The notes under the pieces were generated by a model. That model was not told where the DNA came from. It saw nothing but the letters and a program-made list of their open reading frames with translations, and made no database searches. From Bdellovibrionales bacterium (GTDB lineage Bacteria > Patescibacteriota > JACMRA01), in NCBI GenBank assembly GCA_044378055.1, contig JBILXY010000002.1:27122-91121 (forward strand): 64,000 nucleotides of DNA, given 5' to 3'. A program made the position numbers and the translations under genes. Positions 3,001 through 39,341 of this stretch are shown here, piece after piece (the stretch's first letter is position 1; each line of letters starts with the position of its first letter).

Positions 3001-6000
3001 GGTGAGAGACACCCTACCGGTTGGTTTGGATTTGGTTAGTTATCAGGTAATTACAACCGCGGCTGCAAGTTCAGGGGCTTTAAGCCAAGATTTTGCAGGA
3101 ACTTTAAACCCAGAAACTTTATCAGTATCAGGTCAAAATGCTACTTGGAATTTTGGTAATGTTAATGTAACCTCGGATAATATTAATACAAACAATACAT
3201 TTATAATTAGAGTTACCACCAGAGTTAACAATTTACCTTCCAACATTAATAATTTTGTGCTGGTTAATAATTCCAGTGTAATTTATCAAAACCCTACCAC
3301 CTTGCTTGATGTTACCGTAGTTGATCCTACCCCTGTAAGTATTACAGTTTTAGAACCAGTGATGAGTATTACCAAGGTGTTCAGCCCATCCAGCGCTGCA
3401 CCAAACGATGTCGTAAATATTACATTAACTGCCACAAATAGCGGGGGATCTACTTCTTTCGAAACTAATATTCAAGATTTAGTTAACACAAGTTCCCACT
3501 TTACAAATGTCACCCCAATTACCACCCCAGTAGGATTTACATACTCAACTGCTCCTAGTGGCGGCAATACAATGGTAACTTACACAGGTGGAAATATTCC
3601 TGCCGGTCAGAACAGAGTGTTTGTATTTTCAGCTCAAGTTCAAAGCACATTAGCGGGAGGGCAAACAATTAATAACTCGGCTTCTATAACCCAATCTACT
3701 ACTCTTTCCGGTGTTTCAGCTTTTGAAAGATTAGAACCAGTTGTTAGTGGAAATGCCAACTTAGTTATTCAAGTTCCAGATTTAGTTTTAACCAAAACTG
3801 ATGCTCAAACTACAGTAATTCCAGGTCAAAACCTAGTTTATAACCTTACTGTTACCAATAGCGGAACATACAGGGCAGATAATGTTACAATTACTGAAAA
3901 CCTTCCTGCCAATACAACTTTTAGCGCCACAAACAGTTTACCAGATGTCTGGAGCGGAACAGGACCATACACCATAAATATTGGAACTTTAAACCCAGGA
4001 CAGACCAGAATTGTAAGATTTGCAGTTCAAGTAAATGCTTCAGTACCAAGCGGAGTAACCAGCCTTACCAACAATGCCAGCGTAGTTGATGATGGAACCC
4101 ATGGGGCAGATTTAACCCCTCTAAATAACCAAGCTACGGATGTTGATGTTTTAAATGCCACCCCAGATTTAACCATAACCAAAACCGACGGAAATGTAAC
4201 TGTAACTACTGGAGACTTGATTACCTATACTTTGGGATACAATAATGCGGGCAATCAAAATGCCACTGGTGTGGTAATTTCTGAAACCGTTCCTGCCAAT
4301 ACCACCTTCAATTCTGCCGGCTCAACATCGGGCTGGAGTTGTACTAATGGGGCAATCGCTGGAAGTGTTTGTAACTTTACCATAGGAAACCTTTCGGTAG
4401 GTACAAGCGGTTCTGTAAACTTCGCCGTAACCACCAATGCTACAATACCTGCTGGCGTAAATAATATAACCAACACTGCCACAATTACCGATGATGGAAC
4501 TAATGGAATTGACCCTACCCCCGTAAACAACCAAGCCACTGAACCTACCCCAATTACCGCCACCCCAGATATTGTAATTACCAAAACTGATGGCCAAACT
4601 ACTGTTCTACCAAGCCAAACTTTAACTTATACTTTAACAATTTCAAATGTTGGTAACCAAGGGGCATCAGGAGTGGTAATATCAGATACTTTGCCTGCTG
4701 GAATGAACTATAATTCTTCTTCAAATGCTGGTGTTCCAAGCGGACAAACAATTACATGGCCAACAATTTCACTGGCTGCTGGTGCTGTTATAACTAGAAC
4801 TGTTACAGTTACATTAAACAGTAATTTCCCTTCTGGAGTAAATAGTTTAACCAACAACGCCGCTGCTAATGATGATGGAACAAACGGAGCTGATCCTACC
4901 CCATTGAATAATGCAACTACTGATGTTGATACTTTAAATGCAGCCCCAGATTTAAGAATTACCAAAACTGATGGCGGCGCAACCCCTGTTCCAGGCAATA
5001 ACCTTATTTATACTTTAAATTACGATAATATCGGCAACCAAAACGCCACCGGTGTAGTTATAACCGAGACTGTTCCTAATGATACTACTTTCAGTACAAC
5101 AGGATCTAGTGTTGGTTGGAGCTGTGCTAATGGTGCTGTGGCTGGAACAACTTGTTCGTTTAATGTTGGAAACTTTAATGTTGGAGCTACTGGAAGTATT
5201 ACATTTGCTGTTTTAGTAGATAATCCTTTGCCTAGTGGTGTTGATACAATTACCAATACTGTTTCTATTGCTGATGATGGTACTAATGGTGTGGATCAGA
5301 ATTTAGCCGATAACCAAGCAACCGAAACAACCCCAGTTATTGCCGCCCCAGAAATTTCCATAACCAAAACCGATGGTAAAACCAATTTGGATCCTGACGA
5401 ATTAAATACTTACACTTTAACCATCACCAACAATGGTAATCAAGATGCTACCGGAGTGGTTATTACCGACACATTGCCTCTTTCACTTGGCTATCTAACT
5501 TCAAGCGATTCAGGTGTATTTGCAAGCCCTACAATAACTTGGCCAACTATAACCTTGGCAGCAGGCCAAACAGTAACAAGAACAGTGGATGTTGTGGTTG
5601 CAGATTCTGCCCCAATTCCTGCCGGTCTTGAAACTATAAGAAACGAAGCTTCAGCTAATGATGATGGAACAAACGGAGCCGACCCTATTCCAGCCAATAA
5701 CATAACCGAGGATATTGACACCATAACTGGTTTACCAGACTTAAGAATTACCAAAACAGATAACCAAACTACTGCTACACCAAATCAGCTGGTTATTTAC
5801 AATCTTAATGTTCAAAACACAGGTAATCAAAATGCTTCGGGGGTTATTGTAACTGAAACTGTTCCTGCTGGAAGTACTTTTGTGGCTTCATCAAGCACTC
5901 CAGGCTGGGTTTGTGCTGGCGGAGGAATTGCAGGAAGCACTTGTACATTTAGCCTTGGTGGTTTAAACGGAGGAAGCTCTGCGCCACTAGATTTTGCCGT

Positions 6001-7462
6001 GCAAACAGATACAACAATTAGCGTTCCAAGTTTAATTAACACAACCACAGTAGCCGATGACGGTTTAGGCGGAATTGATGCAACCCCATTGAACAATACA
6101 TCAACTGATACAGATAATTTCCTTGGTAATCCTGATATATCTGTAACTAAAGACGACCTTTTGACTATAGCAAACCCAGGACAAATTTTACCTTACAGCA
6201 TAACTGTTACCAATTTAGGAAATGTTATTTCCACAGGTATTTCCGTGATAGACACAATTCCAGTACAAACTAACTTTGTAAGTGCTTCAAATTCAGGAAC
6301 TTACAACCCAACTGGAAGAACAGTTTCTTGGAACATACCAACTTTAACCCCAGGTCAAAGTGTAATTTTCACAACCAACATCCAAGTAAATAGTTTAATA
6401 CCGGCTGGAATTGATAATCTTTCCAACACTGTTGCTGTAATCGATGATGGAACCCATGGTGTTGATTTAGATTTAAGTAATAATAACGCCGAAGATATTG
6501 ACTTTTTGCAAGCAAGGCCAGAGTTAGAAATTATAAAAACCAGTAACCAAGCTTCAGCCTTCCCTAATGAAATATACATTTACCAACTAAATTATGCTAA
6601 CATAGGCGACCAAGGCAGCACTGGGGTTGTAATAACCGAAACTGTTCCAAATTATTCTACATTTAGCACGACAGGATCTTCCTCAGGTTGGAGCTGTAAT
6701 AACGGCGATATTGCAGGCACAACTTGTACTTATAATGTTGGAGGCTTGGCAGCTACCGAAACCGGTTTAATAACCTTCGCAGTAAGGCTTAATAGCACAG
6801 TTCCAACTGGTATTACCGAGTTAATTAACGAAGTTGAAATTGCTGACGATGGAAACAACGGAAATGAACCAATTTTGGCTAATAACTTCTCTTCACTGAC
6901 TACCCCAATTCCTAAGGTTGATTTGGAAATTATAAAAACTGTTGATAAAACCTCAGTTAGTTTACAAGAAGAACTAACCTACAACTTTATTTACAGAAAC
7001 TTAGGCCCTGATATTGCTACAAATGTTGTAATGTCAGATTTACTTCCTGCAGGCTTCCAGTTCATAAGTGCCAGCCAGAACAATTTGCCAATCACCGTTC
7101 AACTTTCAGATGGTGGAAACGGCAGAACCTTAATTCAGTACCAATTAGGTGCACTGCAACCTGGCTTTGAAGGAACACTTTCAGTTCGAACCAAAATTAT
7201 TAACCCAAGTGCTGGCCAAATTGAAAATCAGGTGACTATTCAATCACGCGAAGTAGATCCTGAAGTTTCCAACAACAGAAGTTCAGCTTTTGTTGAGGTA
7301 ATAATTCCAGGGCAAGGACCAAATTACAACAAATATGTTGTCCGTACCGGAGGAGAATTTTACTCAGGCCTAACAATGCTTATTCTAGCCCTAGTAAGCG
7401 GAGTATATCTACTAAGCTTCCAACCAAATTCCAAGAGAAAAACGGTAGAAGAAAAAGTTTAA
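2..7462 (+). CDS. Giant cell-surface/adhesin-like protein, 5'-partial (2,486 codons in the window), built from DUF11-type 'conserved repeat domain' modules. It ends in a C-terminal sorting-signal-like membrane anchor.
   Basis: The frame is open from nt 2, with no stop upstream of the TTG at 41 used by the ORF track, so the gene probably starts left of the window. A recurring signature is seen: P[DE]LxITKTDG..PGxxLxYTLxxxNxGNQxATGVVIxxTLP...DDGTNGxDPxPxNN. Composition is Thr/Asn/Val-rich. The C-terminus reads VVRTGG-EFYSG-LTMLILALVSGVYLLSF-QPNSKRK. Confidence 0.85.
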   Translation, partial: NSVRFSYGNFDDPLNRPSTADILFTLTVTDTPFADGVNLVNQVRSNVGTTNSVGQVADAIVPVILSLPGLNTTKGIVSSDVPAAVYTPVTRGPVTFNNPGGASCTLANHRFTGTINSTNRTATPITSNISGLDAGDLVTMVTTVENTGLGPKGAFNVTLNDVLPAGLTIPTGGLNLCVTNGAGTPLAFTPVNPLDTNPWVQSGIRLTDPSGIQGAISAFDATSGTNIVVISYDLAVATSASPRQVLTNQSILSNYTASAAGPNFLSSSLTDSASVTLRAGTTAKSILGTNQASTAGLNVAIGEQVQYRVVVTVPEGTSASSTIVDTLDSGLAFVSVDSITSSSTDLTTSIVGGYPTVLANRVVSSSGAGATNAGRVLTLNFGTLTNVNTNNAVAETITIDYTVVVINTAGAVRGTNLNNSVVYNWNNGSAQSLATVSATNVVVVEPTLLTSKTASVATGDANDIITYTVTVNHSGASNLAASEVSLSDIIPAGITYQTGTLAYFSGAVPTTLTEASGTITATWTTFPLATTSVFRFQAIVNTNVNPSQLIANVANTQWTSLPGIISTTQSTFNTLATERTGNVGDVGGAANNYRAAGTANFTVLGTIPLKTIVTTSESFTGNVAGVERLAVGEIVRYRMAIRVPEGITPALVLTDNLPAGLTFINDGTALYATSSNGGVVSSVGALAVGCDQVGSSNAITATCAIPGGNITGSPFNDGTDPSFVLGSITNTDNDVNEEFVIVEFNALVSNVAGNQAFNQTTSAVTNTTLANTFQSFINTSTLVGTSTALNIQVAEPLINNLAESLVVVPTDAGDPIEYNITFSNTATGNNASPAFDLTLVDQLSSNFDLLTVTVTSKPGYTNVTDNSVTPTGLASLVFDRLNPGDSITVRITGQVISAFNLGGNLQSNPSLRYTSLPGTGTASNPTGSVTPISPATSTERTGTTLPAQNDYQTFASFNIPTGTNIGVDKITPAITSYTIGEQPVFDIRVNLQEGVINSVRVRDTLPVGLDLVSYQVITTAAASSGALSQDFAGTLNPETLSVSGQNATWNFGNVNVTSDNINTNNTFIIRVTTRVNNLPSNINNFVLVNNSSVIYQNPTTLLDVTVVDPTPVSITVLEPVMSITKVFSPSSAAPNDVVNITLTATNSGGSTSFETNIQDLVNTSSHFTNVTPITTPVGFTYSTAPSGGNTMVTYTGGNIPAGQNRVFVFSAQVQSTLAGGQTINNSASITQSTTLSGVSAFERLEPVVSGNANLVIQVPDLVLTKTDAQTTVIPGQNLVYNLTVTNSGTYRADNVTITENLPANTTFSATNSLPDVWSGTGPYTINIGTLNPGQTRIVRFAVQVNASVPSGVTSLTNNASVVDDGTHGADLTPLNNQATDVDVLNATPDLTITKTDGNVTVTTGDLITYTLGYNNAGNQNATGVVISETVPANTTFNSAGSTSGWSCTNGAIAGSVCNFTIGNLSVGTSGSVNFAVTTNATIPAGVNNITNTATITDDGTNGIDPTPVNNQATEPTPITATPDIVITKTDGQTTVLPSQTLTYTLTISNVGNQGASGVVISDTLPAGMNYNSSSNAGVPSGQTITWPTISLAAGAVITRTVTVTLNSNFPSGVNSLTNNAAANDDGTNGADPTPLNNATTDVDTLNAAPDLRITKTDGGATPVPGNNLIYTLNYDNIGNQNATGVVITETVPNDTTFSTTGSSVGWSCANGAVAGTTCSFNVGNFNVGATGSITFAVLVDNPLPSGVDTITNTVSIADDGTNGVDQNLADNQATETTPVIAAPEISITKTDGKTNLDPDELNTYTLTITNNGNQDATGVVITDTLPLSLGYLTSSDSGVFASPTITWPTITLAAGQTVTRTVDVVVADSAPIPAGLETIRNEASANDDGTNGADPIPANNITEDIDTITGLPDLRITKTDNQTTATPNQLVIYNLNVQNTGNQNASGVIVTETVPAGSTFVASSSTPGWVCAGGGIAGSTCTFSLGGLNGGSSAPLDFAVQTDTTISVPSLINTTTVADDGLGGIDATPLNNTSTDTDNFLGNPDISVTKDDLLTIANPGQILPYSITVTNLGNVISTGISVIDTIPVQTNFVSASNSGTYNPTGRTVSWNIPTLTPGQSVIFTTNIQVNSLIPAGIDNLSNTVAVIDDGTHGVDLDLSNNNAEDIDFLQARPELEIIKTSNQASAFPNEIYIYQLNYANIGDQGSTGVVITETVPNYSTFSTTGSSSGWSCNNGDIAGTTCTYNVGGLAATETGLITFAVRLNSTVPTGITELINEVEIADDGNNGNEPILANNFSSLTTPIPKVDLEIIKTVDKTSVSLQEELTYNFIYRNLGPDIATNVVMSDLLPAGFQFISASQNNLPITVQLSDGGNGRTLIQYQLGALQPGFEGTLSVRTKIINPSAGQIENQVTIQSREVDPEVSNNRSSAFVEVIIPGQGPNYNKYVVRTGGEFYSGLTMLILALVSGVYLLSFQPNSKRKTVEEKV
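3775..7290 (+). repeat. In-frame tandem array of 9 DUF11-like units inside the giant gene.
   Basis: Unit starts (PDL/PDI/PEL..TKTDG) are at 3775, 4163, 4565, 4946, 5348, 5735, 6131, 6518 and 6914, giving spacings of 381-402 nt. Two unit types alternate. One carries GWSCxxGxxAGxxC; the other carries TITWPTIxLAAG. Confidence 0.85.
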
Positions 7463-7473
7463 CCCAAATGCAG

Positions 7474-7492
7474 GGGAATGCTTGCCATTCCC
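7474..7492. repeat. GC-rich hairpin GGGAATG-CTTGC-CATTCCC. It belongs to the 'GGG..CTTG..CCC' family also seen at 38853, 39074, 39147 and 56607.
   Basis: A perfect 7-bp stem lies 12 nt after the stop of the giant gene. It is not followed by a T-tract, so it is not a canonical terminator. Confidence 0.6.
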
Positions 7493-7553
7493 GTTGAGGG
7501 CCGTAGCGTCGAACGCGGATCGACATGGATCGACATGAAAAAAAACGAGGCCC

Positions 7554-7594
7554 ATTCTCCCTTGTAAAGGGAGGTGCCCAACGGGCGGAGGGTT
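7554..7594 (+). repeat. Two-hairpin GC-rich repeat, family B copy.
   Basis: Sequence ATTCTCCCTTGTAAAGGGAGGTGCCCAACGGGCGGAGGGTT. Hairpin 1 is CTCCCTT/AAGGGAG, hairpin 2 is GCCC-AAC-GGGC, and a G-rich tail follows. Confidence 0.7.
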
Positions 7595-7643
7595 AGAAGC
7601 GTAGGCAAAGGGAAGTTGGAGGGTTATTGGCAAAACTGACACC

Positions 7644-7689
7644 AATTCCCCCTTGAGAAGGGGGTGGCAACCGCAGGTTGACGGGGGTT
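7644..7689 (+). repeat. Two-hairpin GC-rich repeat, family B copy.
   Basis: Sequence AATTCCCCCTTGAGAAGGGGGTGGCAACCGCAGGTTGACGGGGGTT. Hairpin 1 is CCCCCTT/AAGGGGG, hairpin 2 is CAACC-GCA-GGTTG, and the tail is GACGGGGG. Confidence 0.75.
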
Positions 7690-7711
7690 AAAAAAACTCC
7701 CCTTGCGGGGA
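7689..7711 (-). terminator. Intrinsic terminator downstream of tRNA-Thr.
   Basis: The minus strand reads TCCCC-GCAA-GGGGA followed by GTTTTTTTAA, 12 nt after the tRNA 3' end. Confidence 0.7.
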
Positions 7712-7722
7712 ATTAAAATTTC

Positions 7723-7798
7723 TGGAGCCAACAATCGGATTCGAACCGATGACCTTTTCCTTACCATGGAAATGCTCTACCGACTGAGCTATGTTGGC
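7723..7798 (-). tRNA. tRNA-Thr (anticodon GGU), CCA encoded.
   Basis: Manual cloverleaf on the minus strand. Acceptor GCCAACA/TGTTGGC; D arm GCTC-AGTCGGTA-GAGC; anticodon arm TTTCC-ATGGTAA-GGAAA; T arm ATCGG-TTCGAAT-CCGAT; discriminator T followed by CCA. Confidence 0.9.
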
Positions 7799-7892
7799 GT
7801 CTGTTTCATTAAAAAAAGAAGTTAGCAGGCTTTTTGTCAAGCTAATCCCTTTGAGTATACTAGGAGGCTGGGCTACTTATCGTGAACTTGAG

Positions 7893-7924
7893 CTACACTG
7901 TCATCCTGAATTTATTTCAGGATC
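7893..7924 (+). repeat. Hairpin repeat, family C (CTACACTGTCATCCTGAA-loop-TTCAGGAT).
   Basis: ATCCTGAA-TTTAT-TTCAGGAT forms an 8-bp stem. The same arms recur at 8037-8048, 56658-56687 and 56697-56711. This element generates the spurious ORF 7791..7985 (peptide ...HCHPEFISGS...). Confidence 0.7.
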
Positions 7925-8004
7925 TAAAACTGTAAACGACAGTAGCATTGGAAACTTGCCAATTTCTGCCACCCTACACATGTAAACTAATTCATCATCA
8001 CAAT

Positions 8005-8026
8005 GGAGACTGGGAGTCTCCGCTAC
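8005..8026 (+). repeat. REP-like element, family A: GGAGACT-GGG-AGTCTCC + GCTAC.
   Basis: A perfect 7-bp palindrome plus a CTAC tail (GTAG on the opposite strand). Near-identical copies lie at 9987, 10561 and 18913. Confidence 0.8.
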
Positions 8027-8129
8027 AGCCTCGCTTTCATCCTGAATTATACACCAAAAAATTTACCCTTGCCATATATCAAAATGAAATTAAATAAGAA
8101 ACTAGGTTAGTATTATATAGGAGAAGCTA

Positions 8130-8657
8130 ATGTTAGATTGTTTAGGATGGATACGTAGTCTATTTACCTTTGGCTTGTGCTTGTTGATTTTTTCCTCATG
8201 TGCAACAGCCCTGTTTTTTAAACCTACACCACAACCACAGCCGAACGTGGCTATAGAAACACAGCAAGAAAGATTGAATACAAAAGAATCCAGTAAAAAC
8301 CTTACAACAAAAGGCGATATTTATAAGGAAAAAACTATAAAGATTTTGGATTCCGAAGGTAAACCCATTCGCGATGGAAATACTCCAGGTGCTATTTTAT
8401 TTATCGAGGTAAGCCAGAATCTATATCTTGGAGAAACAGCAGAAACAGCGAGATTCATTAAATACTTGCCAGGCGATGATCCGAGCTGGGTTTCAGACGG
8501 ACGAAAAACTTTACCTTACTCTGAACTTGGCAGATATTATAGAAACAAAGATGAGTTGCTTGCGGTTCAAACTTTAATATGTGCGAAGCAAAAAAGGACA
8601 TATGACGAAAATGGCTATTACATTTACGAACCGAAACCAGTTGCTTGCCCAAATTAG
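8130..8657 (+). CDS. Hypothetical secreted protein or lipoprotein.
   Basis: 175-aa ORF with an N-terminal hydrophobic segment ending LLIFSSC (lipobox-like). No family recognised. Confidence 0.5.
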   Translation: MLDCLGWIRSLFTFGLCLLIFSSCATALFFKPTPQPQPNVAIETQQERLNTKESSKNLTTKGDIYKEKTIKILDSEGKPIRDGNTPGAILFIEVSQNLYLGETAETARFIKYLPGDDPSWVSDGRKTLPYSELGRYYRNKDELLAVQTLICAKQKRTYDENGYYIYEPKPVACPN

Positions 8658-8772
8658 TTTTAATTATGAGCAAAATTACAACCCCTGTACAACACAGGGT
8701 TTTATCATGCCCAATTTCAGAACATTTATTTTACTTGCCAAAGCTAAAATTCTTAGAAAGAGTAAAGCACAT

Positions 8773-9954
8773 ATGCAACTTTGGAAATTTGTTCTAGCCG
8801 GAATAACAGGAGATTTGGCCAAGAAAAAGATTTTACCTGCCCTAGCCCAATTCGCTATAAATAATCAAACCGAAGTTCAAATTGAATTAATTGGTTATTC
8901 CCGAAGCTTACCTGACCAAGCTGAAATTAATCTTATACTAAACCAAGCCAGTGTCGGCGAACACAAATTAAGCAAAATTGAATACATTCAAGGTGAATAC
9001 ACCGATCCTAATTTAGTCACCAATTTCACAAATCAGCTAAATGAAAATCAAAGATTGGTAATTTATCTTGCTGTTCCACCATTAACTTACTTGGATATTA
9101 TCGGAAATTCATCTTCAATCCAACACAAACAAGCCGATATAATTATTGAAAAACCTTTTGGCCAAAACAAACAAGAAGCTGAGCAATTGCTAGATTTAAT
9201 TAATAATCAAGGTTTAGAAAACCAGGTTCATTTCTTTGATCATTATTTGTTCAAAAACCCTGCCATGCTTAGTAAGGCGGACAAAACTAATTTAAGCTTT
9301 TTAAAAGACAAATGGCCCTCTGCAATTACAATCAAAGTTATTGAAGAAGAAGGGGTTCTAAACCGTGGCGGTTATTACAACTCTATTGGGGCTTTAAAAG
9401 ACATGTGGCCTCACATTCACAATTTATCTAAATTAATTTTCACCAGCCTTCCCATTAAGCCAAGTGTAAAGCCTTGTAACTATGAATGGAGCAAAGTTTT
9501 ATTTGCCCAATACGATAACTATACCATAGATGTTAATTTGGAAAATTCTAACACTGAAACTTTCTTCAGCCTAAAAGGAAATGTAAAATATAATCGCCGT
9601 GCTATACCCATAGATATTGTTTGTGGGAAAAAACTTGGGAAGAAAGAAACCATTATTGAAATTAATTTTGAAGATGAAACTAAACTAATCTGGACTTTTT
9701 ATCCACATCCTTCCTTACAAATTATTAGTCCAGAAATAAATTTCACCCTAAACTTGGAAAGAAATAACAATTTAGATCACACTAACCTATTTTTGAATCT
9801 ATTAGACAACGACCTTTCAAAATTTGTTACACCTGCCAATATTCACCACATCTGGGATACTTACGCCGACATTTTAAAATTGTGGAAAAAACAAAAACAA
9901 GAGGTTCAATATTATAATTACAGTAACTGGACAGAACTAGTTGAAATTAATTAA
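8773..9954 (+). CDS. zwf: Glucose-6-phosphate 1-dehydrogenase-like protein (divergent).
   Basis: FVLAGITGDLAKKKILPAL (compare GATGDLAxRKLxPAL), IIIEKPFG (EKPxG) and FFDHYLFK (compare RIDHYLGK). I placed the start at ATG 8773 (M65 of the track ORF). The 8581 start would overlap the upstream gene. Confidence 0.7.
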   Translation: MQLWKFVLAGITGDLAKKKILPALAQFAINNQTEVQIELIGYSRSLPDQAEINLILNQASVGEHKLSKIEYIQGEYTDPNLVTNFTNQLNENQRLVIYLAVPPLTYLDIIGNSSSIQHKQADIIIEKPFGQNKQEAEQLLDLINNQGLENQVHFFDHYLFKNPAMLSKADKTNLSFLKDKWPSAITIKVIEEEGVLNRGGYYNSIGALKDMWPHIHNLSKLIFTSLPIKPSVKPCNYEWSKVLFAQYDNYTIDVNLENSNTETFFSLKGNVKYNRRAIPIDIVCGKKLGKKETIIEINFEDETKLIWTFYPHPSLQIISPEINFTLNLERNNNLDHTNLFLNLLDNDLSKFVTPANIHHIWDTYADILKLWKKQKQEVQYYNYSNWTELVEIN

Positions 9955-9986
9955 GGTAGTCTGGAGCTTGGAGATGTTGCCATAAT

Positions 9987-10008
9987 GGAGACTGGGAGTC
10001 TCCGCTAC
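9987..10008 (+). repeat. REP-like element, family A.
   Basis: GGAGACTGGGAGTCTCCGCTAC, 33 nt after the zwf-like stop and 18 nt before the next start codon. Confidence 0.8.
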
Positions 10009-10025
10009 ACATTCAAAACCACAAT

Positions 10026-10547
10026 ATGCCTTTTCAAACTAAAATTACCCTTATACTACTTCAAACCCTAGACGGTTTCATAGCTAAAAACCAAAACGAC
10101 AATTTAGACTGGGGCAGCAGCGAAGATAAAAAGCTTTTTGCTGAAAGAACCAAGAAAATTGGCTTAATGATTTGTGGAAGTAACACTTACCTTAAAATGA
10201 GTCCGGAAAGTTTTGAAGATAGAAAAACCATTGTGGTAACTTCAAGACCAGAGGAAATAGATAAACAGGTTGAAAATGTAGAATTTTTTACCGGCTCACC
10301 GGCAGAATTAAAAGCCAAACTTTCTGATGAGGGTATTGCTGAAGCTGCTCTTGTTGGTGGTGGTAAATTGAACAATGCTTTTTTACAGGAAAATTTAGTT
10401 GATGAAATTTACATAAGCCTAGCTCCGGTACTTTTTGGCACAGGCGTGAGAGGTTACGGCGAAAACCAACTATTTAATAAATTTGAATTAATCTCGAATG
10501 AAATTATCAGCCCCAGCCTAATTCTTTTACATTACCAGAAAATCTAA
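10026..10547 (+). CDS. RibD C-terminal-domain / dihydrofolate-reductase-like reductase.
   Basis: LLQTLDGFIAKNQNDNLDWGSSEDKKLF ... LVGGGKLNNAFLQENLVDEIYISLAPVLFGTG matches the RibD_C fold pattern. Confidence 0.65.
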   Translation: MPFQTKITLILLQTLDGFIAKNQNDNLDWGSSEDKKLFAERTKKIGLMICGSNTYLKMSPESFEDRKTIVVTSRPEEIDKQVENVEFFTGSPAELKAKLSDEGIAEAALVGGGKLNNAFLQENLVDEIYISLAPVLFGTGVRGYGENQLFNKFELISNEIISPSLILLHYQKI

Positions 10548-10560
10548 GGCGATACTTTTT

Positions 10561-10582
10561 GGAGACTAGGAGTCTCCGCTAC
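10561..10582 (+). repeat. REP-like element, family A (one loop substitution).
   Basis: GGAGACTAGGAGTCTCCGCTAC, 14 nt after the stop at 10547. Confidence 0.8.
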
Positions 10583-10656
10583 GGGCATACAAACCAAGAG
10601 TTACGGTCATGCAAACCAAGATTGACAAGCAACCCTGATTCAATCAAACCATTCTT

Positions 10657-10986
10657 ATGGAAAACTTAAAACTAACTTCAGAACAAATCCACTCCCAGCT
10701 TAAACTTCTGCCAGACTGGGCCGATATCGACGAGCTTAAAATTAACAAAACCTTTAAATTTACCAATTTTGTTGAAGCCCTATCTTTTATCAACCAAGTT
10801 GGAAGCCTGGCCGAAACCGCCAAACATCACCCAGATATTCACGTTTATTACAACCAAGTAGTTTTTGAATTATGGACCCACGATGTTCAAGGTTTATCAG
10901 ATAAAGATTTCGATTTAGCGATTAAAATTGAAGAACTTTACACCAATTTCATCGCAGAAGAAAAAACCCTAGAAACGGATTACTAA
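10657..10986 (+). CDS. phhB: Pterin-4a-carbinolamine dehydratase (PCD/DCoH).
   Basis: 109 aa. INKTFKFTNFVEALSFINQVGSLAETAKHHPDIHVYYNQVVFELWTHD is the characteristic PCD core. Confidence 0.75.
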   Translation: MENLKLTSEQIHSQLKLLPDWADIDELKINKTFKFTNFVEALSFINQVGSLAETAKHHPDIHVYYNQVVFELWTHDVQGLSDKDFDLAIKIEELYTNFIAEEKTLETDY

Positions 10987-11020
10987 AATTCCCCTTTTGA
11001 GGAGTGGATTCAAAGAGGTG
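10987..11020 (+). repeat. Degenerate or deleted family B repeat copy.
   Basis: AATTCCCCTTTTGAGGAGTGGATTCAAAGAGGTG starts directly after the stop codon. It aligns to the 63407 copy with an internal deletion. Confidence 0.45.
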
Positions 11021-11092
11021 CTAGTCATCTCTTTTTTCTTGTCCAAATTCTTTATTTTTGACTAAAACTGAACTGCTAAATAAATTTAAATT

Positions 11093-12901
11093 ATGATCAA
11101 TAGGCCCTTGTTGCAAATTAAAGACTTACACAAATCCTTCGGACTGAAGAAAATATTTACCGACGCCAATTTAGTTATTACCGAAAACCAAAAGATTGGA
11201 GTAATTGGCAGAAATGGGGCTGGAAAAACCACACTTTTTAAAATGATTATGGGCCTTGATGAGCCAGACTTAGGTGAAATTCAACATTATCCATACATGC
11301 GTTTAGGATATATCGAGCAAAACGATCCGTTTTTACCTGGTGAAACTGTTATAGATTTCCTTGAAAGATATACCAAAAAACCCACTTGGGAATGTGCCAA
11401 AGTTGCCAGCCGTTTCCAACTTAAAAAAGATAGATTAGAAAAACCAGTAACCGATTTATCTGGAGGTTTCCAAATGAGGGTAAAACTAACTGCCACCCTA
11501 CTTTTCGAACCAAATTTGTTGTTATTGGATGAGCCTACCAACTATTTAGATTTATCAACTTTAATTTTGCTAGAGAAATTTTTATTAGATTTTAAGGGAA
11601 CTGTAATGGTAATTACCCACGACAGAGAATTTATAAAGAAAACCTGCAATTCTACGCTTGATGTTGGTCATGGTCAGCTTTTTTTGCATAACGAAGGTTT
11701 GGAAGAATATTTAGAATACAAGCAAGAACAAGAAGAATTGGCTAAAAGTGTTAATGAAAACATCGAGAAGAAACAGAAACAACTTCAAACTTTCGTTGAT
11801 AAATTTGGTGCTAAAGCCAGTAAAGCCAAATCTGCCCAGTCTAAAATGCGTCAGATTGATAAATTAGATACTAAAAAAATTGGTATAGCCACAGCTTTTT
11901 CTAATGTTAGAATGCATATTCCCACCGTTGAAAACAAACAAGGCGACGCTTTGGAATGTGTAAATATAGATATTGGTTACCCAGGAAAAGTGGTGGTAAA
12001 AGGTATTGATGTTCGGGTTGAACGCGGTAAAAAAGTGGCTATTTTAGGGGATAACGGACAAGGAAAAAGTACTTTCATGAAAACCATCATGAATGAAATT
12101 CCAACTATGAAAGGTGAAGTTGCTTGGAAAAAAGGTTTGAAATTAGGGTTTTATAATCAGCATTTAAGTGCCAGTTTGAATCCAGATGAAACTGTTTTTG
12201 GTTTTGCATCCAAGAAAGCTGAAGGAAATTCCAGTATGGACGAAGTTTTTAGAATTTTAGGAAACTTTTTATTTACAAGGAATGATTATGAAAAAACTGC
12301 TTCGGTTTTAAGTGGAGGGGAAAAAGCCAGACTTTGCTTGGCTGGAATATTTTTAGGTAAAGCCGATGTATATTTATTGGATGAACCTACAAACCATTTA
12401 GATTTTGAAACCGTGGAAGCTTTAGGCGCTGCTTTGGGTAATTTTAATGGAACAGTTTTTGTAATTTCCCATAATCGAACTTTCGTAAGCTTAATTGCCA
12501 ATGAAATTATTGAAATTAAAGACGGAGGATTGAAAAGAATTTTAGGAAGCTACCAAGATTATGTTTGGAATTTAGAACAACAAGCCGATTTGGAAAATGC
12601 CTCAAATAAAAAAGCTGATACCGAGGAAGCTGCGGCGAAGTTTGATGTAACAGGGGCTGGTGGAAGTGGCAAAACAGAAAATGGACAGGTTTCGTCGAGC
12701 GGTGGCGGAAATATGAGTAAAGAAGTTCGCAAAAAACTTTTTGAAATGAACAAAGAACTGAAAAAAGCCGAAAGAAAAATGCAAAACCTGCAAAGCTTAA
12801 TAGAAAGCGAACAAAACGACGATTCAACAAAAGCCAAGTTAGCAGATGCTGAAATTGTTTGGCTAGAATTAAAAGATCAGATTGAGAAGTTGCAAGGGTA
12901 A
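11093..12901 (+). CDS. ABC-F family ATPase (translation-factor type, no transmembrane domain).
   Basis: Two ABC cassettes. The first has GRNGAGKTTLFK / LSGGFQMRV / LLLDEPTNYLD. The second has GDNGQGKSTFMK / LSGGEKARL / LLDEPTNHLD. The C-terminus is a charged coiled coil. Confidence 0.85.
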   Translation: MINRPLLQIKDLHKSFGLKKIFTDANLVITENQKIGVIGRNGAGKTTLFKMIMGLDEPDLGEIQHYPYMRLGYIEQNDPFLPGETVIDFLERYTKKPTWECAKVASRFQLKKDRLEKPVTDLSGGFQMRVKLTATLLFEPNLLLLDEPTNYLDLSTLILLEKFLLDFKGTVMVITHDREFIKKTCNSTLDVGHGQLFLHNEGLEEYLEYKQEQEELAKSVNENIEKKQKQLQTFVDKFGAKASKAKSAQSKMRQIDKLDTKKIGIATAFSNVRMHIPTVENKQGDALECVNIDIGYPGKVVVKGIDVRVERGKKVAILGDNGQGKSTFMKTIMNEIPTMKGEVAWKKGLKLGFYNQHLSASLNPDETVFGFASKKAEGNSSMDEVFRILGNFLFTRNDYEKTASVLSGGEKARLCLAGIFLGKADVYLLDEPTNHLDFETVEALGAALGNFNGTVFVISHNRTFVSLIANEIIEIKDGGLKRILGSYQDYVWNLEQQADLENASNKKADTEEAAAKFDVTGAGGSGKTENGQVSSSGGGNMSKEVRKKLFEMNKELKKAERKMQNLQSLIESEQNDDSTKAKLADAEIVWLELKDQIEKLQG

Positions 12902-12965
12902 TTGACTAAGTCTATTTTATATGCAAAAAAATAAAATGATTTGTAAATAAATTGGATTAAAAACA

Positions 12966-13250
12966 ATGAGTAGTCACTTAGTTGTGTATCAAGATTCTAG
13001 TAAACCCGATGCTAATACCTTATCACTTTTTGCATTGATCGAAGGTTCGATTGGAAACCCTTTATATAGATTAGTTGAAAGAAACCATCCTTTGGAAACT
13101 TTAATTAACTGTGCTTATACACAAGCTATCCATTTGGGTCGAGGTGACTTGAAGGAAATGGCTAACAATTGCCAACAAAATTTGCATCACATCGACTGCA
13201 CAGAGCTTGACTACTTGGTAGTTGATTCTATAGTATATGATGACGATTAA
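12966..13250 (+). CDS. Orphan hypothetical protein (94 aa).
   Basis: ORF followed by its own hairpin and T-tract. No family recognised. Confidence 0.4.
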   Translation: MSSHLVVYQDSSKPDANTLSLFALIEGSIGNPLYRLVERNHPLETLINCAYTQAIHLGRGDLKEMANNCQQNLHHIDCTELDYLVVDSIVYDDD

Positions 13251-13258
13251 CACGCACT

Positions 13259-13285
13259 AACTAGCTTTAAGCTAGTTTATTTATT
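13259..13285 (+). terminator. Intrinsic terminator.
   Basis: AACTAGC-TTTAA-GCTAGTT followed by TATTTATT, between convergent genes. Confidence 0.55.
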
Positions 13286-13303
13286 GCCACTTAAACAGCT
13301 TAA

Positions 13304-15100
13304 CTACATCCCAAGCAAAACCAACCCTGCGTACCACAAAGGCCATTGGGGTTTTGGGATATTGTTTTTTTCTAGCCAGGTTTGTGGGTTTTCTAAATTT
13401 ATTCTATTATCTTCCCCTTCCAAAACTTTCTGAATTATTTCCTGATTAGGTTTTAAATTAAACTGGTTACTAAGTTCTAAGATATTTTGAATTAATTTTT
13501 TAGCGTCAAAAGATCCATCAACAAGAATACAAGGCACTGGGTTTGCGTTATGTTCGGTGTCTGTGGTTTTACCACCGCTAGTAAGCCCTACCATTTCAAT
13601 ATTTCCATGATCGGCCGTAATAAGCATTTTATGATTTCCCTTTTCTACAGCTTTAACCAATCGGCCGATTTCAACATCCAAAGCTTCCATACTTTCTATT
13701 GAAGCTGGAATATTCCCGGTGTGGCCAAGCATATCCGGATTGGCGTAATTTACGATAATATAATCATATTTTCCAAGGCCATTTTCAAGAATATAGTCTG
13801 TGATTTCCTTGGCTTTCATCTCTGGTTTTTCCGCGTGACTATGAACTTTATTTGAATTAATTACATGCCAAGTTTCACCTTCCCACTTTTTGTTTTGCCC
13901 ACCGTTAAAGAAATAAGTTACATGGTTGTACTTTTCAGTTTCTGCAATATGTAACTGAGTTTTTCCTTCGCTACTTAGCACACTAGACATTGGGTTTGAA
14001 ACTGCCTGATTTTTAAAAATTGGATAATATTGCCCTTCTTTAAAAGTTTCTGGATTAAAGTTTTTCGGAATAATCTTTGATGAAATATCCAAGTTGGACT
14101 TTAAGAATATTTCTTGTTCAATTCCGTAACTATTATTAGCTAAAATTGTTAAATTTAAATTAAATTCCTGGTTTAAATGGCATAAAACCGTTGAAAACTC
14201 CTTCATTCTATCGGTTCTAAAGTTCATTAACCAAACTGTGTCAGTCTTTTGTATATAAAAATAACCAACCGCAGAAATCATTTCATCAAATTTGTTATCA
14301 TTATAATTTAGACTGCATACTTGCTTTAATTCCAAGTCAATGGATTTTAAATCTATAAGTTCAGATTTTAACTTTTCTGTTGGATGAATTTCATTTTGTA
14401 TTTTATATTCAGAAAGCAGATATTCATTTACATTTTCCAATTTGGAAAAATCAAACATTGCAGCCATACCTTCAATTACCCTGCCCCAGTTATTATCTCT
14501 ATCCATGGTATAAAAACGACCGCCAACCGAACCCAAAAATATTTTGTCCTGATAAGGCTTTAATTGATTTTCAAAAGTATTAGTAAAATAATTCCAAGTT
14601 GAAACTAAGCTTGTTCTATCAGAATCACGCCCATCAGTTATAATATGTAGAACAATTTTTTCTGCTCCAGAAAGCCCTGCACTAGCAATAGAGGCAGCCC
14701 AATGCCTTAAATCAGAATGGATTGTACCAGTTGAAAACAAACCGACCAGGTGCACAGTTTTGCTTTGGCTTTTAGAAAGTTTCATTTTTAAAAACAATTT
14801 TGGGTCGAAAATTTGATCAGGCCAAGCTTTATTTAAGGTAAAATTTTCCTCCGAGCTTTTGGTTATTTGATAACTTAATTGCTTTATTAAACCTAATCCA
14901 CCTAAATTCATATGCCCCACTTCACTATTTCCAACCAAACCACTTTCTTGCCCAACACAATCTCCATCCGAGTTTAAAGTTGTCCACCAATAATTTTTAA
15001 GCAAATACCTAATATTGGGCATTTTTGCCATACTTACAACATTATTCTGGGAAGTTTCCGCCAAACCAAATCCATCTAAAACACATAAAATTTTTGTCAT
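13304..15100 (-). CDS. gpmI: 2,3-bisphosphoglycerate-independent phosphoglycerate mutase, with internal insertions and a C-terminal extension.
   Basis: LCVLDGFGLA, NSEVGHMNLGG, ANPDMLGHTGN and TADHGN motifs of iPGM. At 598 aa it is longer than typical iPGMs. Confidence 0.85.
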   Translation of the reverse strand: MTKILCVLDGFGLAETSQNNVVSMAKMPNIRYLLKNYWWTTLNSDGDCVGQESGLVGNSEVGHMNLGGLGLIKQLSYQITKSSEENFTLNKAWPDQIFDPKLFLKMKLSKSQSKTVHLVGLFSTGTIHSDLRHWAASIASAGLSGAEKIVLHIITDGRDSDRTSLVSTWNYFTNTFENQLKPYQDKIFLGSVGGRFYTMDRDNNWGRVIEGMAAMFDFSKLENVNEYLLSEYKIQNEIHPTEKLKSELIDLKSIDLELKQVCSLNYNDNKFDEMISAVGYFYIQKTDTVWLMNFRTDRMKEFSTVLCHLNQEFNLNLTILANNSYGIEQEIFLKSNLDISSKIIPKNFNPETFKEGQYYPIFKNQAVSNPMSSVLSSEGKTQLHIAETEKYNHVTYFFNGGQNKKWEGETWHVINSNKVHSHAEKPEMKAKEITDYILENGLGKYDYIIVNYANPDMLGHTGNIPASIESMEALDVEIGRLVKAVEKGNHKMLITADHGNIEMVGLTSGGKTTDTEHNANPVPCILVDGSFDAKKLIQNILELSNQFNLKPNQEIIQKVLEGEDNRINLENPQTWLEKNNIPKPQWPLWYAGLVLLGM

Positions 15101-15938: not shown

Positions 15939-15967
15939 TTTTTTACAATGGGTTTTATTCTTTCTAC

Positions 15968-16000: not shown

Positions 16001-16013
16001 CAGCAACCTGTTC

Positions 16014-17151: not shown

Positions 17152-17152
17152 A

Positions 17153-18912: not shown

Positions 18913-18934
18913 TGAAGACTGGGAGTCTCCGCTA
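18913..18934 (+). repeat. REP-like element, family A (one stem substitution).
   Basis: GAAGACTGGGAGTCTCCGCTAC, 11 nt beyond the stop of the minus-strand GT26-Nudix gene. Confidence 0.75.
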
Positions 18935-18944
18935 CTGACGATTT

Positions 18945-38726: not shown

Positions 38727-39341
38727 ATGGCTATAAAACAAACACGCAAATCAAATCGTCTTCCATTTAAATCAATTTATACATCCAACAATTCCTTTTT
38801 TATTACCATGTGTGTGGAAGGGAGGATTTGTTGTTTGTCTAAAATATTTGATGGGAAGGCAAGCCTTACCCCTACGGGTAAAATTGTTGAGGAATCTTGG
38901 TTATCTTTGACCAATTTGGTAAATGATATTCAACTTGATGAATTTGTGATTATGCCAAATCATTTTCACGGAATTATTACTTTTTTCGACCCACCAACAT
39001 TTAAAAATTCAGAAAGATTGGTTGATTTATCCCAAATAATGGCCATATTTAAATCTAAAACAACAAATTTAATCCGTAGGGGAATGCCTTCGGCTTCCCG
39101 AGATAACCGAAGAATTTTGACTGCCCAAGACAACATGGTTTGTAACGGGAAGGCAAGCCTTACCCCTACGAATATACCGAAATTTCAATGGCAGAAATCT
39201 TTTTATGATCATGTTATACGGGATGAAACAGATTTGCTTCGGGTTCGAGAATATATTTTTAATAACCCTTTACAGTGGGAACTGGATATTCTTAATCCAA
39301 AAAATGAGGATGAATACCAAAGATGGTTAATTGCAAAATAA
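38727..39341 (+). CDS. IS200/IS605-type HUH-Y1 transposase of the REP-associated (RAYT-like, COG1943) kind.
   Basis: HUH motif in MPNHFHGII and catalytic Tyr context WQKSFYDHVIRDE. The N-terminus NRLPFKSIYTSNNSFFITMCVEGR is typical of the family. No terminal inverted repeats or second transposase ORF are present. Confidence 0.75.
   Translation: MAIKQTRKSNRLPFKSIYTSNNSFFITMCVEGRICCLSKIFDGKASLTPTGKIVEESWLSLTNLVNDIQLDEFVIMPNHFHGIITFFDPPTFKNSERLVDLSQIMAIFKSKTTNLIRRGMPSASRDNRRILTAQDNMVCNGKASLTPTNIPKFQWQKSFYDHVIRDETDLLRVREYIFNNPLQWELDILNPKNEDEYQRWLIAK
38853..38876 (+). repeat. GC-rich palindromic element inside the RAYT ORF (copy a).
   Basis: GGGAAGGCAAGCCTTACCCCTACG, identical over 24 nt to 39147-39170. 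It ends in CTAC. Confidence 0.8.
39074..39098 (-). repeat. GC-rich palindromic element inside the RAYT ORF (copy b, inverted).
   Basis: CGTAGGGGAATGCCTTCGGCTTCCC, an imperfect reverse complement of copies a and c. It begins (C)GTAG. Confidence 0.7.
39147..39170 (+). repeat. GC-rich palindromic element inside the RAYT ORF (copy c).
   Basis: GGGAAGGCAAGCCTTACCCCTACG. It forms an inverted pair with copy b, separated by 48 nt. Confidence 0.8.

What the first reader, a model, noticed from the sequence alone, without database searches (positions are those of the whole stretch)
8005..10582. REP-like 'hairpin + CTAC' elements punctuating an operon-like gene row
GGAGACT-GGG-AGTCTCC-GCTAC occurs four times, at 8005, 9987, 10561 and 18913. 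There are only two substitutions overall, and all copies are in the same orientation. Three of them lie in the short gaps around the zwf-like, RibD_C-like and PCD genes. A truncated derivative, GGAGGCTGGG-CTAC, is at 7864. Read on the other strand the element is GTAG-C-hairpin. That is the organisation of classical enterobacterial/pseudomonad REP elements: a conserved GTAG tetranucleotide 5' of an imperfect palindrome, recognised and cleaved by RAYT HUH transposases. CTAC/GTAG also flanks the other repeat families here (CTACACTGTCATCC, CGTAGGGG..., GTAGCGTCGAACGC). A RAYT-type gene is present in the same window at 38727.
Basis: partly seen in the sequence, partly recalled or inferred. Interest (0 to 1): 0.65.

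Follow-up and report, generated by a model that had tools for sequence, protein, structure and literature searches.

The report
GTAG-tagged REP hairpins with RAYT gene
The repeated 22-base hairpin is a genuine member of the well-known GTAG-tagged REP class of small mobile palindromes, found here in an uncultured small-genome (Patescibacteria-like) bacterium that also carries the matching type of REP-associated transposase gene, so it is a new example of a known system, not a new system.

Summary
GGAGACTGGGAGTCTCCGCTAC occurs at 8005, 9987, 10561 and 18914, all on the + strand, with two substitutions in total and none expected by chance. Position 7861 holds a decayed fifth copy.

Scans that did not require the CTAC tag found 21 unique tagged copies, the window's three exact-core copies among them. 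All lie in 32-39% GC contigs of this lineage. One further lineage copy reads GCTAT, and 0 of 44 hits in unrelated organisms have the tag.

On the - strand the element reads GTAG-C, a 7-bp perfect stem and a 3-nt loop. That is the build of a short GTAG-tagged REP.

ORF 38727-39341 is a RAYT/TnpA-REP of subclass 2.4:
- Its motifs are NHFH, WQ and YIFNNP.
- Its modelled fold best matches E. coli TnpA-REP (4ER8).
- It carries an in-frame REP dimer between the HUH and Tyr motifs.

The pairing between this gene and the hairpin family is not shown. No copy lies within 19 kb of the gene, and the REPs embedded in it belong to another family. In one MAG, a RAYT about 37-43% identical to the window's carries this family as an in-frame dimer.

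This is a new member of a known kind, of modest interest.

The parts
8005..8026 (-). REP family A, copy 1. On the - strand it reads GTAG-C-GGAGACT-CCC-AGTCTCC. It lies in the divergent gap between tRNA-Thr and ORF 8130.
   Evidence: DNA fold -5.8 kcal/mol. The ortholog in L039 carries one stem mutation.
9987..10008 (-). REP family A, copy 2, between the G6PD-like and RibD_C-like ORFs. With the GTAG at 9957 it may form a degenerate 52-nt unit with outward GTAG...CTAC tags (9957-10008).
10561..10582 (-). REP family A, copy 3 (loop variant), 13 nt after the RibD_C-like stop codon.
   Evidence: DNA fold z-score -4.5.
18914..18935 (-). REP family A, copy 4 (first stem pair broken), 9 nt beyond the stop of - strand ORF 18945-20483.
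7861..7876 (-). Decayed family A copy (TAGGAGGCTGGGCTAC).
   Evidence: The orthologous site in L039 holds a full copy, GGAGACTGGGAGTCTCCCCTAC.
38727..39341 (+). RAYT / TnpA-REP gene of subclass 2.4 (HUH NHFH at residues 78-81, WQ 155-156, catalytic Tyr in YIFNNP 176-181). It is the candidate, unproven, mobilising enzyme.
   Evidence: NCBIfam REP_Tyr_transpos E=1e-15, 57.8 bits, below the cut-off of 80. Pfam Y1_Tnp 19.8 bits against a cut-off of 23. 4ER8 is the only PDB sequence hit. AlphaFold2 model pLDDT 87. 4ER8 is the top Foldseek hit, E=2e-6. Motifs match Table 1 of PMC6006769.
39076..39167 (+). In-frame REP dimer (REPIN-like, 'double foot' GTAG...CTAC) of another family (B) inside the RAYT ORF. 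It encodes the loop RRGMPSASRDN...NGKASLTPT.
   Evidence: Folds as one long hairpin, -19.3 kcal/mol, z -3.9. The encoded residues, about 119-150, have low pLDDT, with 127-148 below 50.
38851..38873 (+). Third family B hairpin+CTAC copy inside the RAYT ORF. It is nearly identical to 39145-39167 and encodes the conserved stretch GKASLTPTG.

Best explanation
The four copies, plus one relic, belong to a family of GTAG-tagged repetitive extragenic palindromes (REPs). These are non-autonomous elements of about 22-25 nt. On the - strand of the window each reads 5'-GTAG, one spacer base, a 7-bp perfect stem and a 3-nt loop.

Shown here:
- The family is dispersed at many unrelated loci in this low-GC lineage. 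The nearest named CysRS relatives are Patescibacteria-group bacteria.
- Sequence similarity ends directly after CTAC and within a few T-rich bases 5' of the stem.
- The loop identity and the tag are always on the same strand.
- One copy keeps the stem through a compensatory double change.
- Copies sit mostly just downstream of stop codons. In one related MAG they occur as 60-nt dimers with outward tags, inserted in frame in ORFs.

Inferred from the known biochemistry of TnpA-REP (4ER8; PMC3479197, PMC8266576):
- The hairpin folds in single-stranded DNA, probably at the replication fork.
- A RAYT-type HUH/Y1 nuclease recognises it through the stem-loop and the GTAG 'guide'.
- That nuclease cuts and rejoins the DNA nearby and so spreads the element.

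The window encodes such an enzyme of subclass 2.4 at 38727-39341, and it keeps the residues that contact GTAG in E. coli TnpA-REP. Whether this copy of the enzyme or an unseen paralog acts on this REP family is not established.

Once inserted behind ORFs, the hairpins may also act as RNA 3'-end hairpins. They are not intrinsic terminators.
For: - Four copies against zero expected by chance.
- Perfect 7-bp stem and 3-nt loop followed by G-CTAC.
- Scans of genome, metagenome and viral collections with a pattern lacking the tag gave 66 unique core hits when pooled with the window. 21 carry NCTAC, all in 32-39% GC contigs of this lineage. 44 hits in unrelated organisms have no tag, and one lineage copy reads GCTAT.
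- An alignment of 25 non-orthologous copies shows unrelated flanks and sharp element ends, with a compensatory stem change in L009:3351.
- 9 of 20 intergenic copies lie within 45 nt of an ORF 3' end.
- RAYT identity of ORF 38727 rests.
- Its motifs NHFH / WQ / YIxNNP, its length and its in-frame REP between HuH and Y are the published hallmarks of subclass 2.4 (PMC6006769).
- W155, Q156, D161, H162 and R165 align with the GTAG-contacting W94, Q95, E100, H101 and R104 of 4ER8.
- The only genome in the GTDB representative set with several copies (MAG JBIIDY01) has a RAYT homolog within 0.25-4.5 kb of four copies. That homolog carries a family A dimer in its own ORF.
- The architecture matches the 23-nt S. 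maltophilia REP (GTAG, 8-bp perfect stem, 3-nt loop) that its RAYT cleaves in vitro.
Against: - No family A copy lies within 19 kb of the RAYT gene, and its flanks hold no hairpins, so the REPtron criterion fails.
- The REPs embedded in the gene are family B. Closer homologs of the window's RAYT (P0004, P0005, P0006) also encode family B-like peptides. This points to B, not A, as that enzyme's own REP.
- No clean filled-versus-empty site was found, so mobility is inferred from dispersal only.
- Genome-wide copy number is unknown because the source genome is not in the collections searched.
- The curated HMM cut-offs are not reached.
- The strand bias relative to GC skew is weak: the skew is negative for 19 of 26 copies, which are not independent, and it is confounded with gene orientation.
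Confidence: 0.75

Rival explanations
1. The elements are REPs, but the enzyme at 38727 is not their partner. They would be mobilised by another RAYT paralog elsewhere in the genome (an L009-type enzyme), or they are now immobile relics of one that was lost.
For: - The RAYT-embedded REPs in the window are family B, not A.
- The L009 RAYT, about 37-43% identical, carries a family A dimer in frame.
- Related small genomes hold two or three RAYT paralogs on one contig (P0018, P0069 and P0073; P0036 and P0048; two paralogs 1 kb apart in L069).
- All window copies are orthologously conserved in the roughly 92% identical relative L039, and one is decaying.
Against: - No RAYT with family A peptides was found among 199 retrieved homologs, apart from the L009 ortholog.
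- The GTAG-contact residues are conserved in the window's enzyme. Cross-activity on any GTAG hairpin cannot be excluded.
Confidence: 0.45
2. The hairpins are kept mainly as functional RNA or DNA elements and are not currently mobile. Possible roles are 3'-end mRNA stabilisers, transcription attenuators or protein-binding sites at gene ends.
For: - Three of four window copies lie 9-32 nt after a stop codon, and 9 of 20 lineage copies lie within 45 nt of an ORF 3' end.
- The stem is conserved, with one compensatory change.
- REPs elsewhere are reported to act as RNA elements (PMC3733652).
Against: - No T-run follows the stem, and none is called terminator-like.
- The 18914 copy is antisense to both neighbouring genes, and five lineage copies lie in divergent promoter gaps.
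- Copies occur in frame inside ORFs in a relative.
- A one-sided tag and a strand-fixed loop are not needed for an RNA hairpin or a symmetric operator.
- Near-identical 22-mers at unrelated loci need a copying mechanism.
Confidence: 0.2
3. It is an operator-like palindrome for a dimeric regulator of the zwf / ribD-like / PCD gene row.
For: The sequence GGAGACT-N3-AGTCTCC is a 17-bp palindrome, and three copies cluster in one gene row.
Against: - The same element occurs next to unrelated genes at 20 or more other loci and inside ORFs.
- The asymmetric GCTAC tag is conserved.
- Copies sit after stop codons, not at promoters.
Confidence: 0.03

Closest known systems
GTAG-tagged REP superfamily (Di Nocera, De Gregorio & Rocco 2013, PMC3733652)
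   Same: - An unpaired GTAG at one end of a 6-13 bp stem with a 2-3 nt loop.
- Singletons, dimers with outward tags, and clusters.
- Mostly between unidirectional or convergent ORFs, close to 3' ends.
- Occasional in-frame intragenic dimers that encode 20-30 residues.
- Several families per genome.
   Different: The stem-loop sequence GGAGACT-CCC-AGTCTCC was not checked against the 24 published families. The host is an uncultured, roughly 35% GC, Patescibacteria-like lineage, and candidate-phyla (Patescibacteria) bacteria are not among the hosts named in the parts of that survey I read. One spacer base separates the tag from the stem.
Short perfect-stem REPs of Stenotrophomonas / Pseudomonas with subclass 2.5 (Bertels group 3) RAYTs (PMC8266576, PMC6006769)
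   Same: - 22-23 nt in length.
- A perfect stem (7 versus 8 bp) and a 3-nt loop.
- The tag 1-2 nt from the stem, with foot plus stem totalling 12 nt, inside the reported 10-13 nt range.
- A strand-fixed loop.
   Different: The RAYT here is subclass 2.4 by its motifs, not 2.5. The copy density seen (4-5 per 64 kb) is modest. No cleavage data exist.
TnpA-REP / RAYT subclass 2.4 (Quentin et al. 2018) = Bertels group 4
   Same: - NH[IFV]H, WQ and YIxNNP motifs, and about 194 aa in length.
- 'Double foot' GTAG...CTAC REPs.
[quoted passage not shown]
   Different: In the published set REPs are also usually found within 1 kb of the gene; here none flank it. The taxonomic context is Patescibacteria-like instead of Cyanobacteria or Bacteroidetes.
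Rickettsia palindromic elements (RPE) and other coding-region palindromes
   Same: In the relative MAG JBIIDY01 the family A-containing 60-nt dimers sit in frame inside ORFs. They include a methyltransferase with three copies.
   Different: RPEs are reported as longer or CGTC-tagged, and no dedicated transposase is known for them (PMC3733652). In the window itself family A is extragenic.

Membership tests
GTAG-tagged REP | Short (20-40 nt) palindrome able to form a stem-loop | tested here: met
   A 7-bp perfect stem and 3-nt loop in three copies, with one mismatch in the fourth.
GTAG-tagged REP | Unpaired GTAG (GT[AG]G) tag at one end, conserved in most members | tested here: met
   With a search pattern that lacked the tag, 21 of 22 unique lineage copies have NCTAC directly after the stem (17 of them GCTAC). 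None of the 44 hits in unrelated organisms has it.
GTAG-tagged REP | Many copies dispersed at unrelated sites of one genome | tested here: inconclusive
   There are 4 copies plus 1 relic in 64 kb, and at least 25 non-orthologous sites across lineage contigs with unrelated flanks. No complete genome was available for a count.
GTAG-tagged REP | Mainly extragenic, near ORF 3' ends | tested here: met
   All window copies are intergenic, and 3 of 4 lie 9-32 nt after a stop codon. In the lineage, 9 of 20 lie within 45 nt of a 3' end.
REPtron (RAYT gene flanked by its own REPs) | Cognate REPs within about 1 kb on both sides of the RAYT gene | tested here: not met
   The nearest family A copy is 19.8 kb away, and the flanks 38600-38726 and 39342-39450 hold no hairpin. 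Only REPs of another family lie inside the ORF.
RAYT / TnpA-REP subclass 2.4 | HuH motif NH[IFV]H, W motif WQ, Y motif YIxNNP | tested here: met
   NHFH (78-81), WQ (155-156) and YIFNNP (176-181). These positions are invariant or nearly so in 61 homologs. The motif definitions come from PMC6006769 Table 1.
RAYT / TnpA-REP subclass 2.4 | HUH/Y1 fold like TnpA-REP | tested here: met
   AlphaFold2 pLDDT 87.1 and pTM 0.81. The top Foldseek PDB hit is 4ER8 at E=2e-6, followed by IS200/IS605 TnpA structures.
RAYT / TnpA-REP subclass 2.4 | [quoted passage not shown] | tested here: met
   The GTAG...CTAC dimer at 39076-39167 is absent from 160-170 aa homologs. It folds as a long hairpin and maps to a low-confidence loop of the model.
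RAYT (curated HMMs) | Score above the curated cut-off of NCBIfam NF047646 or Pfam PF01797 | tested here: not met
   57.8 bits against a cut-off of 80, and 19.8 against 23. The protein is a significant but distant relative.
RAYT | Binds and cleaves its REP as single-stranded DNA | not testable with these tools
   This needs purified protein and oligonucleotides.
Intrinsic terminator | GC-rich hairpin followed by a T-run | tested here: not met
   None of the four copies is among the 13 terminator-like sites in 7400-19200. The stem is followed by GCTAC.
MITE | Terminal inverted repeats plus target-site duplication | tested here: not met
   Inspection of the aligned flanks of 25 copies shows no direct duplication and no repeat beyond the hairpin itself.

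The most novel reading that the evidence does not exclude
REP/RAYT systems of subclass 2.4 may be active in ultra-small Patescibacteria (CPR) genomes. There the unit of spread would be a dimer of about 60 nt with outward GTAG...CTAC tags. It would routinely colonise coding sequence in frame, including restriction-modification methyltransferases, an aminoacyl-tRNA synthetase and the RAYT gene itself. The RAYT ORF with its embedded REPIN, rather than a flanked REPtron, would then be the heritable unit. One enzyme might also service several REP families that share only the GTAG guide.
Probability: 0.2. Interest if true: 0.5.

Novelty: new member of a known kind. Interest (0 to 1): 0.3.

Why it matters
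The finding adds an uncultured, reduced-genome lineage to the hosts of GTAG REPs and subclass 2.4 RAYTs. It also gives a compact natural test case: a 22-nt perfect-stem REP, a 204-aa RAYT with the GTAG-contact residues, and relatives in which the same REP is translated inside proteins. That case could be used to ask whether one RAYT serves several REP families, and how streamlined genomes tolerate such elements. It does not reveal a new mechanism. The tag, the dimers, the in-frame insertions and even REPs inside the RAYT gene have all been described before (PMC3733652, PMC6006769).

Tried and rejected
1. The genome-contig scan did not recover the source genome, so no genome-wide count or chromosome-wide strand analysis was possible.

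2. I tested whether GTAG is generally enriched 5' of hairpins in the window, using perfect stems, DNA folding energies and imperfect GC-rich stems against 11 control tetranucleotide patterns.

3. I looked for filled-versus-empty sites in close relatives (L036, L039, L051, L067). All window copies are shared with L039. The other differences are synteny breaks or replaced islands, not clean insertions.

4. I looked for a RAYT with family A-encoded peptides in the window's own lineage among 199 retrieved homologs. Only the L009 ortholog (P0046) has one.

5. The strand bias against local GC skew is only suggestive: the skew is negative for 19 of 26 copies, which are not independent, and it is confounded with gene orientation.

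6. The viral contig scan gave three unrelated high-GC hits without the tag.

7. Terminator, operator, MITE and CRISPR readings were considered and rejected.
Full report
**Observation**

The 22-mer GGAGACTGGGAGTCTCCGCTAC occurs at 8005, 9987, 10561 and 18914. All four copies are on the + strand, with two substitutions in total. None is expected in dinucleotide-preserving shuffles.
- Each copy has a 7-bp perfect stem and a 3-nt loop, followed by G-CTAC.
- The window is about 35% GC, so these GC-richer hairpins stand out.
- All four copies are intergenic.
- Copy 2 lies 32 nt after the stop of a G6PD-like ORF and 17 nt before a RibD_C/DHFR-like ORF.
- Copy 3 lies 13 nt after that ORF and 74 nt before a pterin-4a-carbinolamine dehydratase ORF.
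- Copy 1 lies between tRNA-Thr (7723-7798, - strand) and ORF 8130.
- Copy 4 lies 9 nt beyond the stop of a - strand ORF and is antisense to its neighbours.
- The 'truncated derivative' at 7861-7876 is a decayed copy. The orthologous site of a roughly 92% identical metagenome contig (L039) holds a full GGAGACTGGGAGTCTCCCCTAC.

**Is the family larger, and is the tag real?**

I scanned the genome, metagenome and viral collections with the palindrome alone (GGAGACTRGGAGTCTCC, with one extra 5' T for the metagenome scan). The tag was deliberately left out.
- Pooled with the window and dereplicated, 66 unique core hits remain.
- 21 of them are followed directly by NCTAC (17 GCTAC, 2 TCTAC, 1 ACTAC, 1 CCTAC). 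All 21 lie in contigs of 32-39% GC that belong to this lineage, and three of them are the window's own exact-core copies.
- The 44 hits in unrelated organisms never carry the tag. One lineage copy reads GCTAT.
- Allowing two mismatches gives 25 non-orthologous lineage sites whose flanks are unrelated. Similarity starts at a T-rich 1-3 nt before the stem and stops right after CTAC.
- The loop (GGG or AGG on the CTAC strand) never occurs in the opposite orientation relative to the tag.
- One copy (L009:3351) keeps the stem through a compensatory A>G / T>C change.

**What the element is**

On the - strand it reads 5'-GTAG, one spacer base, a 7-bp stem, a 3-nt loop and the return stem.
- This is the definition of a GTAG-tagged REP (PMC3733652).
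- Its size and shape are closest to the short perfect-stem REPs. The 23-nt S. maltophilia REP has GTAG, an 8-bp stem and a 3-nt loop, and its RAYT cleaves it in vitro. There the GTAG and the first loop base are critical (PMC8266576).
- Foot plus stem equals 12 nt, inside the 10-13 nt range reported for short REPs.
- No T-run follows the stem, and none of the copies is scored as terminator-like.
- In the lineage, 9 of 20 intergenic copies lie within 45 nt of an ORF 3' end, and five lie in divergent gaps. This resembles published REP distributions.

**Relatives show the dimer form and coding insertions**

The only genome in the GTDB representative set with several copies is MAG JBIIDY01. It is labelled Limisphaerales, but these contigs are 34-35% GC.
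- The element there is half of a 60-nt unit: GTAG-GGGAAAGC-CCCT-GCTTTCC-ATATGGGTTTTCAT-GGAGACT-GGG-AGTCTCC-GCTAC. This is a dimer with both tags facing outward.
- Three such units lie in frame in one 622-aa ORF that carries a DPAGGSGAF SAM-binding-type motif, which I read as a DNA methyltransferase. They encode the peptide VAETPSLHENPYGKQGLSPT.
- Others lie in frame in neighbouring ORFs. All have GTA read as a Val codon.
- In-frame REP dimers that encode 20-30 residues have been described in other bacteria.
- The window has one such case of another family. GTAGAGGAAACCGCCTGCTTTCC at 57139 encodes HGKQAVSST in a variable loop of cysteinyl-tRNA synthetase. That stretch is absent from most homologs.

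**The RAYT-like gene**

ORF 38727-39341 encodes a 204-aa protein.
- It matches NCBIfam REP_Tyr_transpos at E=1e-15 (57.8 bits, below the equivalog cut-off of 80) and Pfam Y1_Tnp at 19.8 bits (cut-off 23).
- Its only PDB sequence hit is E. coli TnpA-REP (4ER8), aligned over the HUH and Tyr regions.
- Two hundred and forty-five homologs were found. Many are named RayT by IMG, and they range from about 120 to 290 aa.
- The alignment shows a core of about 165 aa with invariant M-P-N-H-x-H, W-Q and Y-I-x-x-N-P. There are two hot spots for variable, low-complexity insertions.
- An AlphaFold2 model has pLDDT 87 and pTM 0.81. Its best structural match is 4ER8 (E=2e-6), followed by IS200/IS605 transposases.
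- Four features are the published hallmarks of TnpA-Y1 subclass 2.4 (Bertels group 4): the motifs NHFH / WQ / YIFNNP, the length, 'double foot' GTAG...CTAC REPs, and REPs inserted in frame between HuH and Y (PMC6006769).
- Positions 39076-39167 are such an insertion: GTAG-GGGAATGCC-TTCG-GCTTCCC, a 45-nt spacer, then GGGAAGGC-AAGC-CTTACCC-CTAC. It folds as one long hairpin (-19.3 kcal/mol, z -3.9).
- That insertion encodes residues of about 119-150, where model confidence is low (127-148 are below pLDDT 50).
- The residues that contact GTAG in 4ER8 (W94, Q95, E100, H101, R104) align with W155, Q156, D161, H162 and R165.

**Is this gene the partner of this repeat?**

This is not shown, and the evidence is mixed.
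- No family A copy lies within 19 kb of the gene, and its flanks have no hairpins. The REPtron arrangement is therefore absent.
- The REPs embedded in the gene are a different family (B). Apart from the three copies inside the gene, only one GCAG-tagged copy near 7472 occurs in the window.
- The closer homologs P0004, P0005 and P0006 encode B-like peptides at the same place.
- The L009 RAYT, about 37-43% identical, carries a family A-containing dimer (NVAEIPSLYGKQGLSPT).
- Related small genomes carry two or three RAYT paralogs.
- No RAYT carrying family A was found for the window's own lineage.
- I therefore put about 0.75 on 'RAYT-mobilised GTAG REP family' and only about 0.4 on 'mobilised by the 38727 product'.

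**Mechanism**

Shown: the sequence anatomy, the dispersal, the tag-loop strand coupling and the presence of a RAYT with intact catalytic and guide-contact motifs.

Inferred from 4ER8 and the in vitro work on three REPtrons: the hairpin forms in single-stranded DNA; the RAYT recognises the stem-loop plus GTAG; it cleaves nearby (CT or CA in the studied systems) and performs strand transfer.

A weak trend places the GTAG strand on the G-rich strand. Local GC skew on the CTAC strand is negative for 19 of 26 copies, which are not independent. That fits action on the lagging-strand template, but the trend is confounded by gene orientation. A secondary role as RNA 3' hairpins is plausible and untested.

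**Lineage and novelty**

The closest named relatives of the window's CysRS are Patescibacteria-group, SR1 and Parcubacteria bacteria. RAYT homologs sit on contigs of 1.16 and 1.27 Mb. I found no paper that links RAYT or REP elements to the Candidate Phyla Radiation. Every structural feature seen here is already described elsewhere. The finding is a new member of a known kind in an under-studied lineage, and it is correct but ordinary in mechanism.

Noticed in passing
window 39076-39167 and 38851-38873: The RAYT ORF contains three GTAG/CTAC-tagged hairpins of a second family. Two of them form a 92-nt inverted dimer (REPIN-like, -19.3 kcal/mol) that is translated as a disordered loop. The third (38851-38873) is nearly identical to 39145-39167, yet it encodes the conserved core stretch GKASLTPTG. 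Repeat DNA has therefore either overwritten, or been copied from, a conserved part of the gene.
   Followed up: partly
window 57139-57163 (inside CysRS ORF 56763-58493, - strand): An in-frame GTAG hairpin (GTAGAGGAAACCGCCTGCTTTCC) encodes HGKQAVSST in a variable loop of cysteinyl-tRNA synthetase. The same hairpin family is the partner of family A in the 60-nt dimers of MAG JBIIDY01.
   Followed up: partly
window 7465-7720: A dense cluster of GC-rich hairpin repeats lies between the stop of the 2473-aa ORF and the 3' end of tRNA-Thr. Some are GTAG-tagged, for example 7503 GTAGCGTCGAACGCGGATCGAC. The cluster differs by several element-sized indels (10-60 nt) from the roughly 92% identical relative L039.
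   Followed up: partly
window 7645-7720, 55966-56030, 63223-63260, 63407-63450; L009 6480-6525: Another repeat family, TTCCCCTCTTGAGGGGTGGCA...GACGGGGTGG, has no GTAG tag. In L009 it lies in frame in the methyltransferase-like ORF just before the DPAGGSGAF motif.
   Followed up: no
window 7892-7944, 56674-56711: The repeat ACTGTCATCCTGAATTTATTTCAGGAT has an AT-rich 8-bp hairpin. At 7892-7944 it has CTACACTGTC...GACAGTAG ends. In relatives it often sits directly next to family A copies (L036, L045, L050, L057), which gives BIME-like clusters.
   Followed up: no
L009 6110-7978 (- strand), MAG JBIIDY010000008: A 622-aa ORF with a DPAGGSGAF SAM-binding-type motif carries three in-frame 60-nt GTAG...CTAC dimers plus one element of the untagged family. 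The neighbouring 521-aa ORF and the RAYT gene carry further copies. The MAG is labelled Limisphaerales, but these contigs are 34-35% GC and share REP families and a RAYT homolog with the Patescibacteria-like window, so the binning may be wrong.
   Followed up: partly
window 34834 vs L067 9853; window 42780-43926 vs L036: Synteny with close relatives breaks exactly at a family A copy in L067. A 1.1-kb island of small membrane-protein ORFs in the window is replaced in L036 by a shorter island that begins with a family A plus ACTGTCATCC cluster.
   Followed up: partly
proteins P0269, P0300, P0257, P0287 (homologs of window CysRS): Some CysRS homologs of this group are 770-950 aa long and carry an extra Y1_Tnp (RAYT) or DUF559/Vsr endonuclease domain according to precomputed Pfam. 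This suggests whole genes fused with or inserted into CysRS.
   Followed up: no
L069 10001-10570 and 11559-12137: Two RAYT paralogs lie about 1 kb apart and flank a grpE gene. The first carries an in-frame GTAG...CTAC dimer of yet another hairpin family.
   Followed up: no
window 41-7462 and 28300-30750: A very large ORF (2473 aa) has internal repeats of about 390 nt. A second region holds repeated coding units of about 160 nt (beta-propeller-like by the neighbouring Pfam hits). Neither is related to the REPs.
   Followed up: no
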